A DNA stretch of 10,992 nt from a virus. Taxonomy: Duplodnaviria; Heunggongvirae; Uroviricota; Caudoviricetes. Shown here piece after piece: positions 1 to 9,720 of this stretch. The notes beneath the pieces are model-generated. The model made no database searches and was not told the DNA's origin. It saw only the letters and a program-made list of their open reading frames with translations. The stretch is taken from IMG/VR virus record IMGVR_UViG_2698536573_000008; one strand, 5' to 3'. Both the position numbers and the translations under genes were made by a program. Positions within the stretch are counted from its first letter, which is position 1; each line of letters starts with the position of its first letter.

Positions 1-186
1 CTACCTGCGCGGCGCTGGCTTCTTCCACTGGTAGGCAGGTGCTCGCATCATTTCGCGGAACCTGTCGCGCCGGGCTATATCGGCATTAACTGAGCGTTCT
101 ATCTCCCGTTGATCTGCCTGTGTAAGCTGGTGGCCTCCGTGCTCAAGTTTGGCGATGGTCAATAAGGCTATTTCGCGTGGTGTCAT
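1..186 (-). CDS. small hypothetical protein (61 aa)
   Basis: Complete minus-strand ORF: ATG at 186-184, TAG stop at 3-1 (window edge). RBS-like AGAGGG about 8 nt upstream of the ATG. No recognisable motif. Confidence 0.4.
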   Translation of the reverse strand: MTPREIALLTIAKLEHGGHQLTQADQREIERSVNADIARRDRFREMMRAPAYQWKKPAPRR

Positions 187-673: not shown

Positions 674-815
674 TAACTCCCATCCAGGCGCGGATTGTGT
701 TGCGTGACCTCCTGTGTGCCTGTAGCCTGGCTGATTCCGGTAATACTGCGGAGTTAGGTCTACCGGCATAGCTTACCCGTGGAGAAATGAATCATCGAAT
801 GAGTTTGGTCGGGAG

Positions 816-1487
816 TTATTCCACCAGCAAAAATGGCGTTGCCCGGTCTATGACGTTGATGCCAATTAACGAGCTAACATTTCGACCATTCACAATGCTA
901 TCCCGTTCAAGCAAATGCGCTATTTTTTCTACTTCATACCAGTATTGAGCCATGAGGGCTTTGGTCTTTTCAACGAGTTTAGAAAGCATTAACTCCCTGT
1001 TAATTTGCTTATCTGTAGCGCAGATTAAATCGAGCATGTCATTTACGTTAGCCATGTCATAGCGATGAGGTAGCGAATACTTTTTGTTGAAAATATCGTT
1101 GTTTTCGTAAAGGGCTTCGCTTACTGGTCCGGCGAGGGATACAAAAGCGGCCTTTTTTGCATCGCGCTTTATACCATCCGCATAGTAACGTATGAAAGGG
1201 ATAACTTTACCATTCTGCCCAACTACACCAGATTTACTATCCCGCAAACGCCCGAGATCGTGGCTGTGAATTATGCTGTGTTTAACAACGCCCAAACACT
1301 TGGCCTCATGTACATGTTCGCCAGCAACGTAACCGTATTCATCCATAACGGCGATAACCTGTATATCTAAGCGAATAAGCCATGCAGCTACTGCATGTCC
1401 CGCTTCGTGGAATGCTACACATCGTTTACCATCACCTATCCAGTTATAGAACATTTCATGCTCATATATCTGGTGAATGGCGCCCAT
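816..1487 (-). CDS. standalone FtsH-like (peptidase M41-type) zinc metallopeptidase domain protein (223 aa)
   Basis: ATG at 1487-1485, TAA at 818-816. HEAGH zinc-binding motif at residues 27-31 in an FtsH-like context (CVAFHEAGHAVAAWL). Downstream MANVNDM resembles the FtsH third-ligand Asp region, and the C-terminal helical region is collinear with the FtsH protease domain. No AAA+ ATPase module. Sampled 60-nt blocks are 37-45% GC, below the backbone. Confidence 0.75.
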   Translation of the reverse strand: MGAIHQIYEHEMFYNWIGDGKRCVAFHEAGHAVAAWLIRLDIQVIAVMDEYGYVAGEHVHEAKCLGVVKHSIIHSHDLGRLRDSKSGVVGQNGKVIPFIRYYADGIKRDAKKAAFVSLAGPVSEALYENNDIFNKKYSLPHRYDMANVNDMLDLICATDKQINRELMLSKLVEKTKALMAQYWYEVEKIAHLLERDSIVNGRNVSSLIGINVIDRATPFLLVE

Positions 1488-1660
1488 TACGCGCCCTCGC
1501 TTGCCAGTGAGGCCAGCGCCTTATCCATTAATCCCCGAGCAATTTCGTGGATCGTTGGCGCAACTCCTACCTCTGATTTTTTACGCTGCTCCTCCTGAAT
1601 TTTCTTTATCGCTTCCATTTGCTTCTCACTTATCAATACCGGCTTTACTGAAATAGCCAT
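1487..1660 (-). CDS. small protein (57 aa) translationally coupled to the M41-like peptidase gene
   Basis: ATG at 1660-1658 (MAISVKPVLISEKQ...) preceded by AAGGGG. Its stop overlaps the peptidase start as TAATG at 1489-1485. The ORF-track start at 1687 is TTG and less likely. Lys/Glu-rich helical sequence, possibly a small DNA-binding or antitoxin-like partner. Confidence 0.55.
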   Translation of the reverse strand: MAISVKPVLISEKQMEAIKKIQEEQRKKSEVGVAPTIHEIARGLMDKALASLASEGA

Positions 1661-1692
1661 AACGCCCCTTAGAACTGTATAAAACAACAGTT

Positions 1693-1698
1693 ATTATA
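1693..1698 (-). promoter_or_regulatory. candidate -10 element (perfect TATAAT on minus strand) for the small-protein/peptidase operon
   Basis: Minus-strand TATAAT (plus 1693-1698) about 33 nt upstream of the ATG at 1660, in an AT-rich leader. -35 is poor. Confidence 0.25.
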
Positions 1699-1795
1699 GT
1701 TTCGCAAATAGCAATATTTATCACCGTAATTGCAAAATATGAAACAAATAGCACAAAAAATGCCGCCGCTCAGTAGCTGCTGGCATCGTTCTGTG

Positions 1796-1814
1796 TGTCA
1801 AGTTTTGACAAGTT
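1796..1814. promoter_or_regulatory. bipartite 19-nt motif TGTCAAGTTTTGACAAGTT (copy 1 of 2 in window)
   Basis: Two 10-bp-phased half-sites. Minus-strand reading AACTTGTCAAAACTTGACA contains a consensus TTGACA. A 17/19-identical copy lies at 7052-7070. Confidence 0.4.
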
Positions 1815-1855
1815 TCGTTTTAAGCTCACCCCCCCATAGAATCTTTTTGGGGGTG

Positions 1856-2110
1856 TAATATCCCTACCAATCCCTACTAACTGGCTCATGCCACGAATGG
1901 CAAGGCTTTCAGACTGGTAGGCATTCAATTTTGTTGCCCTACATAACCCTACTTATCCCTACTAAATCACTTCAACGGCATTTTACTGCCTGTTTTATTT
2001 GGTAGGGATATGTAGGGATAAGTAGGGATAAAAATATATATCCCTACCTAGTTTAAAGCCTTGCTACGTCTGGCCTCGTCTCGTTTTTAGTAGGGCAGTA
2101 GGGATAAGTG
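1856..2110. repeat. iteron array (GTAGGGATA / TATCCCTAC), putative replication origin or crr-like primase-binding region
   Basis: Eleven copies of core CCCTAC/GTAGGG in both orientations: 1861-1868, 1871-1878, 1936-1943, 1947-1953, 1956-1963, 2041-2048 (plus orientation); 2002-2010, 2012-2020, 2022-2030, 2090-2097, 2098-2106 (reverse). Three exact GTAGGGATA copies in tandem at 10-bp spacing. Perfect 9-bp inverted repeat GTAGGGATA-aaaatata-TATCCCTAC (2022-2047) around an A/T spacer. Array ends 15 bp from the primase stop codon. Confidence 0.7.
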
Positions 2111-6107: not shown

Positions 6108-6283
6108 GCCGCCACCTCACGAACGCGGGTAATCTGGATGTGGGAAAGGCGTTCATTTCTGGCCTGATTTAGCGCCTCAGCTTTGGCGCTGATCGCGCTG
6201 CGGGCGTCAACGATATAAACGAACTCGACTAATTCGCCGCTCCGGGCGGTGGCGCATCCTGCAACACGGAAGTAATTAAGCAT
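6104..6283 (-). CDS. hypothetical small protein (59 aa)
   Basis: ATG at 6283-6281 preceded by GGGGG RBS (MLNYFRVAGC...). The longer track ORF 6104..6520 has an implausible N-terminal extension overlapping the adjacent gene in another frame. Confidence 0.45.
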   Translation of the reverse strand: MLNYFRVAGCATARSGELVEFVYIVDARSAISAKAEALNQARNERLSHIQITRVREVAA

Positions 6284-7187
6284 GTGCGCCCCCTGTGCGA
6301 ATACGTCCGGCAAAAAAGCAAACGTGATCCCGCGCCAGAATGCGGCGGGCTTCCTGCTCAGTCTCTGCGGCGATATGGTGAATTTTGACGGTAATTGTCG
6401 GCATATCGCGGCGAACTGCTGCGATAATCCAGATAAATTGCGGTTTTTGGGTAGGGGTAGTAGCCAGCATAGCGGCAGCCTCTGATTCATGGTTTTGAGA
6501 ACCACCACCGGAAACGCCAATTTCGCTGGTGGTGAACTGTACAGGGTTGGCGTAACCGGGAATCAGAGAAACCGGCGCGGATTGCTCCGCCCCCATACAG
6601 TCCACCATTGAACAGGTGTAACTGCGCGGCACAAAAAAACACGCATGGCGCGTGTTGTGCGCTCTGATAATTACCGGGACGCCAATCCCGACACCAGATT
6701 TTGCTGGTGCGCTATAACCATAAACCGGGTTGGCGATAGTCGGCAAGCCCTTTTTTATGGACTCCAGAAACTCACCTTCGCGCGTGCGCGTACTGTTGCA
6801 TAAATTCCCTGCATCTAGTGGTGATGTCAGAAAAATCTTCCCGCCTCGTGTAGTGATGATGGGAAAATCTTCCTCGCGTAGTGACCCCCAATAAATCTTC
6901 GTGCGCGTACTGGTCTCGAAACTCTCCTCGTCACCACGACGAGAAAATGAGGAGCTGGCATTAGCTGGCACTGTTATGCCAGCTTCGCATTCATGCGCGT
7001 GCGTACTTGTCCCGAAAACACCAAGATTTGTAAAGATCTGGCGGTGGCAAATGTCAGGTTTTGACAGGTTCCAAACGTCGCTATTTGTCGCAATCTGGCG
7101 GCGGGCTGCTTTGCTCCAGACGTTAACATTTGCATACATCAGGCCAGCCAGGGGAAAGGCTTTATTCTGGATGGCGGCATTAAGCAT
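6276..7187 (-). CDS. hypothetical protein, start uncertain (303 codons if started at 7187)
   Basis: C-terminal half (about 6279-6770) has protein-like sequence. The part encoded by about 6772-7105 is densely repetitive DNA and gives low-complexity S/T/R/G-rich translation. The ATG at 7187 overlaps the antirepressor stop (ATGCTTAA) with a GGGGG RBS, but the true start may be internal or non-ATG. Confidence 0.4.
   Translation of the reverse strand: MLNAAIQNKAFPLAGLMYANVNVWSKAARRQIATNSDVWNLSKPDICHRQIFTNLGVFGTSTHAHECEAGITVPANASSSFSRRGDEESFETSTRTKIYWGSLREEDFPIITTRGGKIFLTSPLDAGNLCNSTRTREGEFLESIKKGLPTIANPVYGYSAPAKSGVGIGVPVIIRAHNTRHACFFVPRSYTCSMVDCMGAEQSAPVSLIPGYANPVQFTTSEIGVSGGGSQNHESEAAAMLATTPTQKPQFIWIIAAVRRDMPTITVKIHHIAAETEQEARRILARDHVCFFAGRIRTGGAHA
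6772..6945. repeat. degenerate tandem repeat array, period about 26-32 bp, 5-7 units
   Basis: Units begin near 6772, 6803, 6833, 6865, 6893, 6919 with shared AAAT(C)TTC(C) plus GTAGTGA/GTACTG cores. Exact 13-mer CGTGCGCGTACTG at 6783-6795 and 6900-6912, with a variant GCGCGTGCGTACTTG near 6994-7008. Confidence 0.6.
6953..6984. promoter_or_regulatory. operator-like cluster: AGCTGGCA x2 direct plus inverted copy TGCCAGCT
   Basis: AGCTGGCA at 6953-6960 and 6963-6970; TGCCAGCT at 6977-6984. Copies 2 and 3 form a perfect 8-bp inverted repeat with a 6-nt spacer. Confidence 0.4.
7052..7070. promoter_or_regulatory. bipartite 19-nt motif TGTCAGGTTTTGACAGGTT (copy 2 of 2)
   Basis: 17/19 identical to 1796-1814; the two differences fall at the same relative position in each half-site. 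Flanked by a direct repeat ATTTGT-N4-ATCTGGCGG (7026-7044 and 7083-7101). Confidence 0.4.
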
Positions 7188-8769: not shown

Positions 8770-9720
8770 TTAACTATCCACTTTGCCATTTGCCGCAGAT
8801 CGCAGCTGTTTAAGAATTACATCTTCATTAGTTATCATAAGTGGTGGAACTTCGTCTAAATGACGAACAAGACAGTCACGCCACTTCTCAGGGCTTATTT
8901 CTTTCCTTACTCCCCTGCATTCATTTGGATACTTACTAAGTATATAAATTGCAGATTTTAATAGTTTCTCCCTATTGACTGCGTACCGTTCGGCACGTTT
9001 ATTAACTTTTAGCGTATTTATATCATTGGATAACTTGTTTGCGGGTGGTTTGTGCATGGGTCTGTCATAAATATATTTTCCTCCATTTATAAGAAGATTG
9101 TATTCATAGTCAGTTATATACATTTTATTTCGGCTTATTTCATACCAGCCGTCAATATAAAAAGCTCCGATTTCATAATTATTCGATTTGCTAAACTCGT
9201 CACATCTCGGAGGCGTCAGTTCGCATACGGAGATCTCCCAATCATCCCATTCTGATAGCTCCCGCTCATCGTTATCTATGAACGCAGACGGAATTGCTAA
9301 TAGACCGTTCCATCTTTCGATATCTCTTTCATCCTTCCCAACATTGTATCGCTCTATAACTGAGAAATGTTCTGATTTGTATGAAAACCTCATAAAATAC
9401 ATATGGTTATCGCTATTTTTATAATCAAGCGGTGATAAGCCATATGATTCGAGATTATCTGCCTCATTGCTCAGATTAAGAAGATAATTCTCATGTGCTG
9501 CTTTTGTATCTATATGAAAAATACTATCTGTTTCAACTTTAAGTAATTCTGGGTCGGCATCTTCATTTTTGGGGTAATGGTAAAACAATTCAATAGGTGG
9601 AATTTTTATACATATTTCTAAAACCCCAATTGCTGCATAGTGTATTAAATCGGATACTTCACATCCGGCCAGTTTGGCTGCTTTATCCAAAGAATAATAT
9701 TTATGCGCAGGTAATTTCAT
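8770..9720 (-). CDS. AT-rich orphan protein (316 aa), possible N-terminal HTH; candidate accessory or anti-phage cargo
   Basis: ATG at 9720-9718 (GAGAGGAAAG upstream), TAA at 8772-8770. Hand-counted GC about 23-37% in sampled 60-nt blocks versus about 60% in the primase. N-terminal YYSLDKAAKLAGCEVSDLIHYAAIGVL resembles an excisionase/MerR-type HTH. The rest is acidic and Tyr/Trp-rich with no catalytic motif recognised. Starts 18 nt after the integrase stop. Confidence 0.8.
   Translation of the reverse strand: MKLPAHKYYSLDKAAKLAGCEVSDLIHYAAIGVLEICIKIPPIELFYHYPKNEDADPELLKVETDSIFHIDTKAAHENYLLNLSNEADNLESYGLSPLDYKNSDNHMYFMRFSYKSEHFSVIERYNVGKDERDIERWNGLLAIPSAFIDNDERELSEWDDWEISVCELTPPRCDEFSKSNNYEIGAFYIDGWYEISRNKMYITDYEYNLLINGGKYIYDRPMHKPPANKLSNDINTLKVNKRAERYAVNREKLLKSAIYILSKYPNECRGVRKEISPEKWRDCLVRHLDEVPPLMITNEDVILKQLRSAANGKVDS

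What the first reader, a model, noticed from the sequence alone, without database searches (positions are those of the whole stretch)
816..1698. Coupled cassette: 57-aa protein plus a standalone FtsH-like (M41) zinc metallopeptidase domain with no ATPase
The 223-aa protein carries HEAGH in an FtsH-like context (AFHEAGHAVAAWL), a conserved Asp region (MANVNDM) and a C-terminal helical region collinear with the FtsH protease domain, but it lacks the transmembrane and AAA+ modules that normally feed FtsH substrates. It is fused by a TAATG overlap to an upstream 57-aa Lys/Glu-rich protein, sits just past the primase and iteron array, and is compositionally distinct (about 37-45% GC). A free M41 protease domain paired with a small partner in a satellite cargo position suggests a signal-triggered protease: an anti-phage or abortive-infection effector, a helper-repressor-cleaving derepression module, or a toxin-antitoxin-like pair. 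I do not recognise this architecture as a described system.
Basis: partly seen in the sequence, partly recalled or inferred. Interest (0 to 1): 0.8.

Follow-up and report, generated by a model that had tools for sequence, protein, structure and literature searches.

The report
ATPase-less FtsH-type peptidase, satellite cargo
A phage-satellite island of E. coli carries a real, selectively maintained zinc peptidase that is just the protease half of FtsH with no motor or membrane anchor; it is swappable cargo of unknown, probably phage-related, function, and the small upstream gene is a shared operon leader rather than its dedicated partner.

Summary
On the minus strand a 57-aa ORF (1487-1660) overlaps by TAATG a 223-aa ORF (816-1487). 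The 223-aa protein is a stand-alone FtsH/M41 protease domain: HEAGH at 27-31, invariant Asp144 aligned to FtsH's third zinc ligand, hhalign probability 99.2% to full-length FtsH, and only FtsH-family proteases as PDB fold matches. It has no AAA+ or membrane module. dN/dS is about 0.2.

The "coupled pair" reading is only partly right. The window is an EcCIMP1-like phage-inducible chromosomal island (PICI) of E. coli. The small gene and its upstream region occur in about 525 of 5,426 complete E. coli genomes. In all five non-M41 islands inspected it heads an operon of P22-type ejection-protein genes. The peptidase is in 53 genomes.

A recombination joint lies inside the small gene's 3' end. Elsewhere the peptidase sits in a 183aa-62aa-58aa-M41 cassette, sometimes followed by a lipoprotein, next to the integrase, at the island's far end, or beside the primase. 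These are the published PICI immunity hot spots.

Function is untested. It matches no known defence model and I found no paper on it. My best guess is an ATP-independent phage-interference peptidase. The toxin-antitoxin and repressor-cleaving readings are disfavoured.

The parts
816..1487 (-). 223-aa stand-alone M41 (FtsH-type) zinc metallopeptidase domain. HEAGH is at codons 1409-1395; the candidate third zinc ligand D144 is at 1058-1056.
   Evidence: ORF. Family profile against PDB FtsH E 2e-18. hhalign against full-length FtsH probability 99.2%, E 8.7e-20. AF2 model pLDDT 84.7. Foldseek against the PDB: the 50 best matches listed are all FtsH, AFG3L2, YME1 or FtsHi. dN/dS 0.17-0.23.
1487..1660 (-). 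57-aa conserved leader ORF of the island's post-primase operon. Its core (residues ~5-49) is backbone; its C-terminal tail (ALASLASEGA) came with the peptidase cassette.
   Evidence: No family, PDB or fold match. AF2 model: extended N-terminus plus two helices.
1485..1489 (-). TAATG stop/start overlap between the two ORFs. A GAGGG Shine-Dalgarno lies at 1494-1498.
   Evidence: Sequence. The same overlap is present in the Salmonella, UTAK-4 and E2348/69 cassettes.
1512..1567 (.). Recombination joint: the zone homologous both to the ejection-protein-type island backbone and to the peptidase cassette.
   Evidence: blastn: window 1512-1815 is 92-97% identical to the E. coli 042 and MSB1_1A islands; window 749-1567 is 89% identical to the UTAK-4 and Salmonella cassette. 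Megablast breakpoints lie at 1506-1512.
1661..1815 (-). Conserved upstream leader or regulatory region of the operon, including the palindrome TGTCAAAACTTGACA (1796-1810).
   Evidence: 92-97% identity across islands that carry different cargo. Sequence. The consensus promoter scan found nothing here.
749..815 (-). 3' flank inherited with the peptidase cassette. Homology ends about 10 bp before the point where a lipoprotein gene starts in UTAK-4.
1860..2105 (.). Iteron array of the island's replication origin (context, not part of the cassette).
   Evidence: 8 copies of TAGGGAT against 0.98 expected in the whole window.

Best explanation
SHOWN: The 223-aa gene encodes an intact FtsH-type (M41) zinc peptidase domain with the motif H27-E28-x-x-H31 plus D144. 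It has no AAA+ unfoldase and no membrane anchor, and it is under purifying selection. It is mobile cargo of EcCIMP1-like phage-inducible chromosomal islands (PICIs) of Enterobacteriaceae.

SHOWN: In this island, recombination inside the conserved small leader gene placed the peptidase where related islands carry P22-type ejection-protein genes followed by accessory genes. The 57-aa gene is the shared first gene of that post-primase operon. It is translationally coupled to whatever follows it, so it is not a dedicated partner.

INFERRED: The peptidase is an accessory phage-interference or defence effector expressed from this operon. Having no ATPase, it can only cut flexible or unfolded polypeptides. 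The most plausible targets are phage proteins that are unfolded or disordered in the cell (for example incoming ejection proteins or regulators), or a host factor exposed during infection. Cleavage would lower productive infection by competing or superinfecting phages.
For: Identity:
- Family profile against PDB FtsH, E 2e-18 across the whole domain.
- 35 of 38 stand-alone relatives hit PF01434.
- hhalign probability 99.2% to a full-length FtsH, with D144 on FtsH's Asp ligand.
- Confident model whose 50 best listed PDB matches are all FtsH-family proteases.
- H27, E28, H31 and D144 are invariant across 60 sequences down to about 20% identity.
- dN/dS 0.17-0.23.

Cargo status:
- Present in 53 of 5,426 complete E. 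coli genomes, against about 525 that share the small gene and its upstream region.
- Lower GC than its flanks.
- Joint inside the small gene.
- Six different island contexts.

Location:
- The cassette sits next to int, at the far end after PerC, or beside pri.
- Published work says PICIs carry immune systems at their 5' or 3' ends and in a region adjacent to pri (PMC11364771).
- A related island, EcCIMP1, is a functional PICI of a P22-like helper and adds superinfection immunity (PMC11773190).
- Distant stand-alone M41 genes also sit beside integrases in primase-bearing elements.
- The best viral fold match is a 214-aa M41-only protein of an uncultured tailed phage.
Against: - There is no functional data of any kind.
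- No cassette protein tested (the peptidase, the 57-aa protein, the 183-aa, 62-aa and 102-aa proteins, the lipoprotein, the Yersinia peptidase) matches a PADLOC model.
- Hot-spot location is circumstantial. The same slot normally holds virion-related genes, so a role in the satellite's own transfer is equally compatible with position.
- The window lacks the 183-aa and 62-aa genes that accompany the peptidase in most other lineages, so this copy could be an incomplete system.
- Two of seven distant family members examined lie among ordinary metabolic genes, so the fold is not tied to mobile elements.
- No substrate is identified.
Confidence: 0.42

Rival explanations
1. Satellite life-cycle function. 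The peptidase processes or destroys helper virion proteins during helper lytic growth (ejection proteins, scaffold or similar). It would stand in for the ejection-protein module that occupies the same slot in sister islands, and so favour satellite transfer or cripple helper particles.
For: - It occupies the slot after the same leader gene that holds homologues of P22 gp14, gp7, gp20 and gp16 in the five non-M41 islands inspected.
- Pick et al. regard this position as the packaging-module position.
- None of the peptidase-bearing islands inspected carries an ejection module.
- The P22 record notes that gp7 is matured by a host zinc peptidase, OpdA.
Against: - The same cassette also sits beside int or after PerC, far from any morphogenesis genes.
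- Neither protein has a homologue in 50,697 phage genomes.
- The apparent exclusivity rests on a handful of islands.
Confidence: 0.17
2. Toxin-antitoxin or abortive-infection pair. The peptidase is a toxin held in check by the 57-aa protein.
For: - The stop/start overlap is conserved: 47 of 53 E. coli copies have the small gene abutting, and Salmonella has it too.
- The small protein's predicted strand-helix-helix layout resembles ribbon-helix-helix antitoxins by eye.
Against: - The small gene occurs about ten times more often without the peptidase. In the five such islands inspected it sits in front of non-toxic virion genes.
- The peptidase is intact without the small gene in QDFD216-type E. 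coli, Dickeya and the 46-49% identity clade.
- Ribbon-helix-helix similarity is not supported by Pfam, PDB profile search, Foldseek, or hhalign against Arc and Mnt.
Confidence: 0.08
3. ImmA-like anti-repressor. The peptidase cleaves a repressor (the small protein or a helper repressor) to switch on the island or the helper.
For: - The small putative DNA-binding gene plus metallopeptidase arrangement recalls ImmR/ImmA.
- In Salmonella and E2348/69 the cassette lies next to int.
Against: - There is no M78 (ImmA/IrrE) similarity.
- The partnership is non-obligate in both directions (see above).
- This island already has a C4/isrK antisense RNA and an AntA antirepressor for its switch.
- The Salmonella island has its own HTH-M78 fusion protein.
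- DNA binding by the small protein is unsupported.
Confidence: 0.07
4. FtsH modulator. The free protease domain co-assembles with, or competes against, host FtsH. This would change turnover of FtsH substrates (CII/C1-type lysogeny regulators, sigma-32, LpxC) and so steer helper lysis-lysogeny decisions.
For: - It has the FtsH protease fold, including the C-terminal helices.
- In FtsH the protease domains form the hexameric base, and FtsH controls lambda CII and CIII (established knowledge, not tested here).
Against: - Identity to FtsH is only about 13-17%.
- The catalytic residues are strictly conserved across the family, which a pure decoy would not need.
- The oligomer interface could not be tested.
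Confidence: 0.08
5. No phage-related role: a general small peptidase or a decaying remnant carried passively. This copy has lost the 183-aa and 62-aa genes of the fuller cassette.
For: - The window lacks the 183-aa and 62-aa genes found with the peptidase in most lineages.
- Some distant relatives lie among metabolic genes.
- Deletion derivatives exist, for example the AntA-M41 fusion P0022.
Against: - The ORF is intact in all full-length copies.
- dN/dS is 0.23 even between the two lineages that both lack the 183-aa and 62-aa genes (window versus QDFD216).
- It is repeatedly captured by satellites in several genera.
Confidence: 0.13

Closest known systems
FtsH / M41 ATP-dependent zinc metalloproteases (FtsH, YME1, AFG3L2)
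   Same: Same protease-domain fold. HEXXH in the FtsH-typical AxHEAGHA context. Asp third ligand. LAGxxAE segment and C-terminal helical bundle, collinear over the whole domain.
   Different: No AAA+ unfoldase and no transmembrane N-terminus, in only 223 aa. An insertion of about 40 residues (roughly 48-100) relative to the shorter stand-alone relatives. The single sequence is below Pfam's gathering score (21.2 against 29.9). It is encoded on a satellite, not a housekeeping gene.
Uncharacterised stand-alone 'Peptidase M41 domain' proteins (about 160-230 aa) of metagenomes, integrative elements and an uncultured tailed phage (A0A6J5RJ76)
   Same: Same AAA-less architecture and the same invariant residues. 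184 representatives at E<=1e-3 and 1,340 clusters at E<=1e-5. Several lie beside integrases. It is the best viral fold match.
   Different: Only 20-28% identical. The enterobacterial clade has the extra insertion and its own partner genes. None of these proteins has been studied.
Lit protease of the e14 element (single-gene zinc-metalloprotease abortive infection)
   Same: Works-like analogy only: a small cytoplasmic HEXXH peptidase carried by a defective mobile element, which would act on a specific target during infection.
   Different: No sequence or family relationship: neither a Lit model in PADLOC nor Peptidase_U49 in Pfam was matched. The trigger and the target here are unknown.
ImmA/IrrE (M78) anti-repressor peptidases with ImmR-type repressors
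   Same: A small regulator-like gene followed by a metallopeptidase in an integrative element.
   Different: A different peptidase family. The partner is not an HTH repressor and is not obligate.
EcCIMP1 and other Gram-negative PICIs (Pick et al. 2025, PMC11773190; accessory immunity regions, PMC11364771)
   Same: Same island plan: int, AlpA-type regulator, AntA antirepressor, Ash/Icd, P4-type primase, PerC. Same slot downstream of pri.
   Different: EcCIMP1-type islands carry DUF2824 and DNA-transfer (ejection) protein genes in that slot. This island carries the peptidase instead.

Membership tests
Peptidase family M41 (FtsH protease domain, PF01434) | HEXXH zinc-binding and catalytic motif in the FtsH context | tested here: met
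   AFHEAGHAV at residues 25-33. H27, E28 and H31 are invariant in 60 sequences.
Peptidase family M41 (FtsH protease domain, PF01434) | Third zinc ligand Asp on a downstream helix | tested here: met
   D144 is invariant. It aligns with the Asp of FtsH's (G)xxxD segment in the hmmsearch and hhalign alignments. That this FtsH Asp is the zinc ligand is established knowledge. Metal binding itself was not tested.
Peptidase family M41 (FtsH protease domain, PF01434) | Single sequence reaches Pfam's curated gathering score | tested here: not met
   21.2 bits against a cut-off of 29.9, covering residues 21-40 only.
Peptidase family M41 (FtsH protease domain, PF01434) | Whole-domain homology at profile level | tested here: met
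   Profile of relatives against PDB FtsH, E 2e-18, profile positions 27-191. hhalign probability 99.2%, E 8.7e-20. 35 of 38 relatives hit PF01434.
Peptidase family M41 (FtsH protease domain, PF01434) | Protease-domain fold | tested here: met
   AF2 pLDDT 84.7, pTM 0.84. Foldseek against the PDB: the 50 best matches listed are all FtsH, AFG3L2, YME1 or FtsHi; best E about 1e-4, TM about 0.5.
FtsH proper (ATP-dependent membrane protease) | AAA+ ATPase module N-terminal to the protease | tested here: not met
   The protein is 223 aa. HEXXH starts at residue 27 and there is no AAA hit.
FtsH proper (ATP-dependent membrane protease) | N-terminal transmembrane anchor | tested here: not met
   The N-terminus MGAIHQIYEHEMFYNWIGDGKR shows no hydrophobic segment by reading. 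No TM predictor was run.
FtsH proper (ATP-dependent membrane protease) | Hexameric ring; ATP-dependent processive proteolysis | not testable with these tools
   No multimer prediction or biochemistry was available.
Phage-inducible chromosomal island (EcCIMP1-like PICI) | Integrase, AlpA-type regulator, primase and origin, about 10-15 kb, no capsid or lysis genes, integrated at a fixed site | tested here: met
   int, AlpA-like HTH, AntA, Ash/Icd, P4-family primase, iterons and PerC, between yicC and dinD. The plan matches EcCIMP1.
Phage-inducible chromosomal island (EcCIMP1-like PICI) | Induction and packaging by a helper phage | not testable with these tools
   Shown experimentally only for the relative EcCIMP1 with the helper Kapi1 (PMC11773190).
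Type II toxin-antitoxin pair (small protein + peptidase) | The two genes co-occur obligately | tested here: not met
   The small gene region is in about 525 genomes and the peptidase in 53. The peptidase occurs without the small gene in 3 E. coli genomes, in Dickeya, and in the 46-49% identity clade.
Ribbon-helix-helix DNA-binding proteins (for the 57-aa protein) | Detectable sequence, profile or fold similarity to RHH proteins | tested here: not met
   No Pfam or PDB profile hit. Foldseek gave no match. hhalign against P22 Arc and Mnt gave probability below 1%. Only the secondary-structure order is compatible.
ImmA/IrrE (Peptidase_M78) anti-repressor systems | M78 peptidase domain next to its cognate HTH repressor | tested here: not met
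   No M78 hit at E<=1. The upstream gene has no HTH match.
Known anti-phage defence systems (PADLOC-DB v2.0.0, including Lit) | Match to any defence-protein model | tested here: not met
   No hit for the peptidase. Only a chance-level Cas11a hit (E 0.017) for the small protein. No hits for the 183-aa, 62-aa and 102-aa proteins, the lipoprotein or the Yersinia peptidase. Newer DefenseFinder models could not be run.

The most novel reading that the evidence does not exclude
AAA-less M41 peptidase cassettes (183aa-62aa-[58aa]-M41, sometimes with a 352-378-aa lipoprotein; reduced here to leader + M41) are a new satellite-borne anti-phage or superinfection-exclusion system. An ATP-independent FtsH-type peptidase would destroy phage proteins that enter or exist in the cell unfolded, for example ejection proteins of P22-like phages. 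This would take over the slot where sister islands carry their own ejection-protein genes.
Probability: 0.2. Interest if true: 0.75.

Novelty: new variant of a known kind. Interest (0 to 1): 0.5.

Why it matters
FtsH-family proteases are textbook examples of proteolysis that depends on a fused ATP-driven unfoldase. Here the protease half alone is conserved, with all catalytic residues, in a large uncharacterised family (more than 1,300 database clusters). One clade of that family is traded among phage satellites of E. coli (including EPEC E2348/69), Salmonella, Dickeya and Yersinia, at the positions where satellites keep immunity genes.

If it proves to be a phage-interference enzyme, it would add a new protease-based mechanism to satellite-helper-competitor conflicts, and give a tractable model for what an unfoldase-free M41 peptidase can cut.

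The work also shows how cargo is exchanged in EcCIMP1-like islands: by recombination within a small conserved leader gene. In addition, most such islands inspected carry P22-type ejection-protein genes there.

Tried and rejected
1. Single-sequence family scans (Pfam, NCBIfam, PHROGs, PADLOC). They gave only a sub-threshold 20-residue M41 hit. The RPN5_C hit (22.3 bits, residues 147-169) and the M50B hits were judged to be chance or HEXXH-helix matches.
2. Ribbon-helix-helix identity of the 57-aa protein. It was suggested by eye and by the AF2 secondary structure. It was not supported by Pfam or PDB profile searches, Foldseek, or hhalign against P22 Arc and Mnt, so I dropped it as a claim.
3. 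Phage homologues. tblastn of both proteins against 50,697 phage genomes found none.
4. Literature. Six searches for M41 or FtsH-like peptidases in defence or satellite contexts found nothing relevant.
5. The search for related loci in genome contigs.
6. Consensus promoter and terminator scan upstream of the small gene. It found nothing, so the operon's promoter remains undefined.
7. Family and PDB searches for the 183-aa, 62-aa, 102-aa and lipoprotein partners. There were no meaningful matches; the only hit was a chance-level PHROG tail-protein match (E 0.0015) for the Dickeya lipoprotein.
8. tblastn for the 183-aa, 62-aa and lipoprotein genes in this window and its island. They are absent.
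9. The toxin-antitoxin and ImmA-like readings were considered and down-weighted because the two genes occur independently.
Full report
**What is there**

On the minus strand, a 57-aa ORF (1487-1660; ATG preceded by AAGGGG) ends in a TAA that shares base 1487 with the ATG of a 223-aa ORF (816-1487). RefSeq annotates the same two CDSs in the identical sequence of E. coli O6:H16 M9682-C1.

The primase gene and an origin with eight TAGGGAT repeats (1860-2105; 0.98 expected by chance in the whole window) lie directly upstream. The cassette is lower in GC (43.6% and 47.7%) than the window (50.8%) or the primase (55%).

**Is the 223-aa protein an M41 peptidase?**

A single-sequence Pfam scan gives only a sub-threshold hit, 21.2 bits against a cut-off of 29.9, over the 20 residues around HEAGH.

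- An exhaustive profile search found 184 relatives at E<=1e-3. All of the best 150 are short (49-402 aa). None is a full-length FtsH.
- A profile of 38 of them matches the protease domains of solved FtsH, YME1 and AFG3L2 structures at E about 2e-18 across the whole domain. 35 of the 38 hit PF01434 individually.
- hhalign of a 60-sequence alignment headed by the window protein against a full-length FtsH gives probability 99.2% and E 8.7e-20. It pairs HEAGH with HEAGH, LAGP-SEA with the LAG--A segment, D144 with the FtsH Asp (its third zinc ligand, by established knowledge), and the C-terminal helices with each other.
- H27, E28, H31 and D144 are invariant down to about 20% identity.
- An AlphaFold2 model is confident (pLDDT 84.7, pTM 0.84). 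The 50 best PDB matches listed are all FtsH-family proteases.

The Asp inside that string varies. There is no AAA+ module, and no membrane segment is evident by reading the sequence. dN/dS between lineages is 0.17-0.23, so this is a functional gene. NCBI already names the family 'peptidase M41 family protein'. I found no paper on it.

**What element is this?**

The window lies between yicC and dinD. It carries an integrase, an AlpA-type regulator, an AntA antirepressor, Ash/Icd with C4 and isrK RNAs, a P4-family primase, iterons and PerC. This is the plan of EcCIMP1, an experimentally verified phage-inducible chromosomal island (PICI) mobilised by the P22-like phage Kapi1 (PMC11773190).

**Is the small gene a partner?**

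Megablast shows that window 1506-1800, which covers the small gene and its upstream region, is shared at 90-97% identity by about 525 of 5,426 complete E. coli genomes. Only 26 of them continue into the peptidase.

In five islands sampled without the peptidase, the small gene is followed by homologues of P22 gp14, gp7, gp20 and gp16, or by gp20 and gp16 only. Variable accessory genes (Abi, Doc) come next, and then PerC. These are the 'DNA transfer/DUF2824' genes that Pick et al. place in the packaging-module position.

The peptidase gene is in 53 genomes. 47 of them have the abutting small gene, and 3 (QDFD216-type) have SSB upstream and no small gene.

blastn places a recombination joint inside the small gene. 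Window 1512-1815 matches the ejection-type backbone. Window 749-1567 matches a peptidase cassette found in Salmonella, E. coli UTAK-4 and EPEC E2348/69. There, a 58-aa homologue (70% identical, with the same ALASLASEGA tail) overlaps the peptidase in the same way. The tail of the small protein changes with the downstream cargo.

The small gene is therefore a shared operon leader and a recombination anchor, not a dedicated partner. Its fold and function remain unknown. A ribbon-helix-helix guess failed every test.

**The wider cassette**

- In Salmonella, E2348/69 and UTAK-4 the unit is 183aa-62aa-58aa-M41, immediately after the integrase.
- In strain Z1323CEC0013 the same four genes lie after PerC at the other end of an island, at a different chromosomal site.
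- In a clade whose peptidase is 46-49% identical, the 184-aa and 55-aa homologues are retained but the 58-aa gene is not.
- In UTAK-4, Dickeya and Yersinia, where the Yersinia peptidase is only 24% identical, a homologous 352-378-aa lipoprotein follows the peptidase.

The window has none of these partners, so it holds a stripped-down version. None of these proteins matches Pfam, PHROGs, NCBIfam, PADLOC or the PDB in any meaningful way.

**What it probably does**

Published work states that PICIs carry immune systems at their 5' or 3' ends and in a region adjacent to pri (PMC11364771). Those are the three positions where this cassette is found.

Distant stand-alone M41 genes also sit beside integrases in primase-bearing elements or near other mobile-element genes, though two of the seven examined are among metabolic genes. 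A 214-aa M41-only protein of an uncultured tailed phage is the best viral fold match.

An M41 domain without an unfoldase can only attack flexible or unfolded chains. I therefore favour, at a confidence of about 0.4, an accessory phage-interference or defence peptidase expressed from the island's post-primase operon.

The main rival (about 0.17) is a role in the satellite's own exploitation of the helper. It would act on virion proteins and replace the ejection-protein module. The P22 record notes that gp7 is matured by the host zinc peptidase OpdA, and none of the peptidase-bearing islands inspected has an ejection module.

Independent occurrence of the two genes weakens the toxin-antitoxin and ImmA-like readings. 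Strict conservation of the catalytic residues weakens an FtsH-decoy role. All functional statements here are inference. No experiment or substrate exists.

**Verdict**

The 'coupled pair' reading is only partly right, and the defence interpretation is plausible but untested.

This is a new variant of a known kind: an M41 peptidase without its ATPase, used as mobile cargo. It is of moderate interest.

Noticed in passing
window 6525-6710 (-): Rfam finds a C4 antisense RNA (76.7 bits) and an isrK RNA (81.1 bits) inside the region annotated as one 303-aa 'Icd-like' ORF (6276-7187). Only residues 157-250 of that ORF match Ash. The island probably has a P1/P4-type C4-icd-ant RNA immunity switch, and the long ORF call may be wrong.
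   Followed up: partly
window 8770-9720 (-): A 316-aa ORF between the integrase and the AlpA-like gene has only 36% GC. It has no Pfam, NCBIfam or PADLOC match. It is a second piece of foreign cargo, in the 5' hot spot.
   Followed up: partly
L003 4313-8971, L004, L036-L038 (sister islands): All five EcCIMP1-like E. coli islands inspected without the peptidase carry homologues of P22 gp14, gp7, gp20 and gp16 (or gp20 and gp16 only) after the small leader gene. Why a satellite carries its own ejection proteins is unexplained.
   Followed up: partly
L015 5933-6991, L007 8795-9853, L008 6734-7870: A 352-378-aa predicted lipoprotein (signal peptide ending in Cys) follows the peptidase in E. coli UTAK-4, Dickeya and Yersinia. 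It is 36-69% identical between them while the peptidases fall to 24% identity. This suggests a functional pair. It belongs to no known family.
   Followed up: partly
L016 6092-6844; L005 5275-6001; L039-L042: A 183/184-aa protein with a very strongly conserved C-terminal half (AEFMRLVRAV-PKY...DPRLVALDVLRYAPAEAFSA) and a 55-62-aa protein precede the peptidase in most lineages. Neither has a family or PDB match.
   Followed up: partly
P0022 (E. coli EC2641 and 65 other contigs): A deletion derivative fuses the N-terminus of the AntA antirepressor to residue ~45 of the peptidase. This removes HEXXH and everything between the two genes, including the primase.
   Followed up: no
L001 11328-12152 (outside the window, same island): The island-borne second copy of dinD matches the PADLOC candidate defence family PDC-S13 at E 3e-126. 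A 'pRiA4b ORF-3 family' gene lies nearby.
   Followed up: no
window 1796-1810 (-): A perfect 6-3-6 palindrome, TGTCAAAACTTGACA, lies in the conserved region upstream of the small gene. It may be an operator for the post-primase operon.
   Followed up: no
window 1-186 (-): The 61-aa ORF after PerC is conserved (37-61% identity) in the 042 and Yersinia islands. It also lies about 1.4-1.9 kb downstream of the peptidase in the IMG/VR contigs. It belongs to no family.
   Followed up: no
window residues ~48-100 of the 223-aa protein (about 1346-1188): The enterobacterial clade has an insertion relative to the shorter stand-alone relatives. It is rich in His and Cys (GEHVHEAKC...HSIIHSH), with H58, E61 and C64 conserved within the clade. 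A second metal or regulatory site is conceivable.
   Followed up: no
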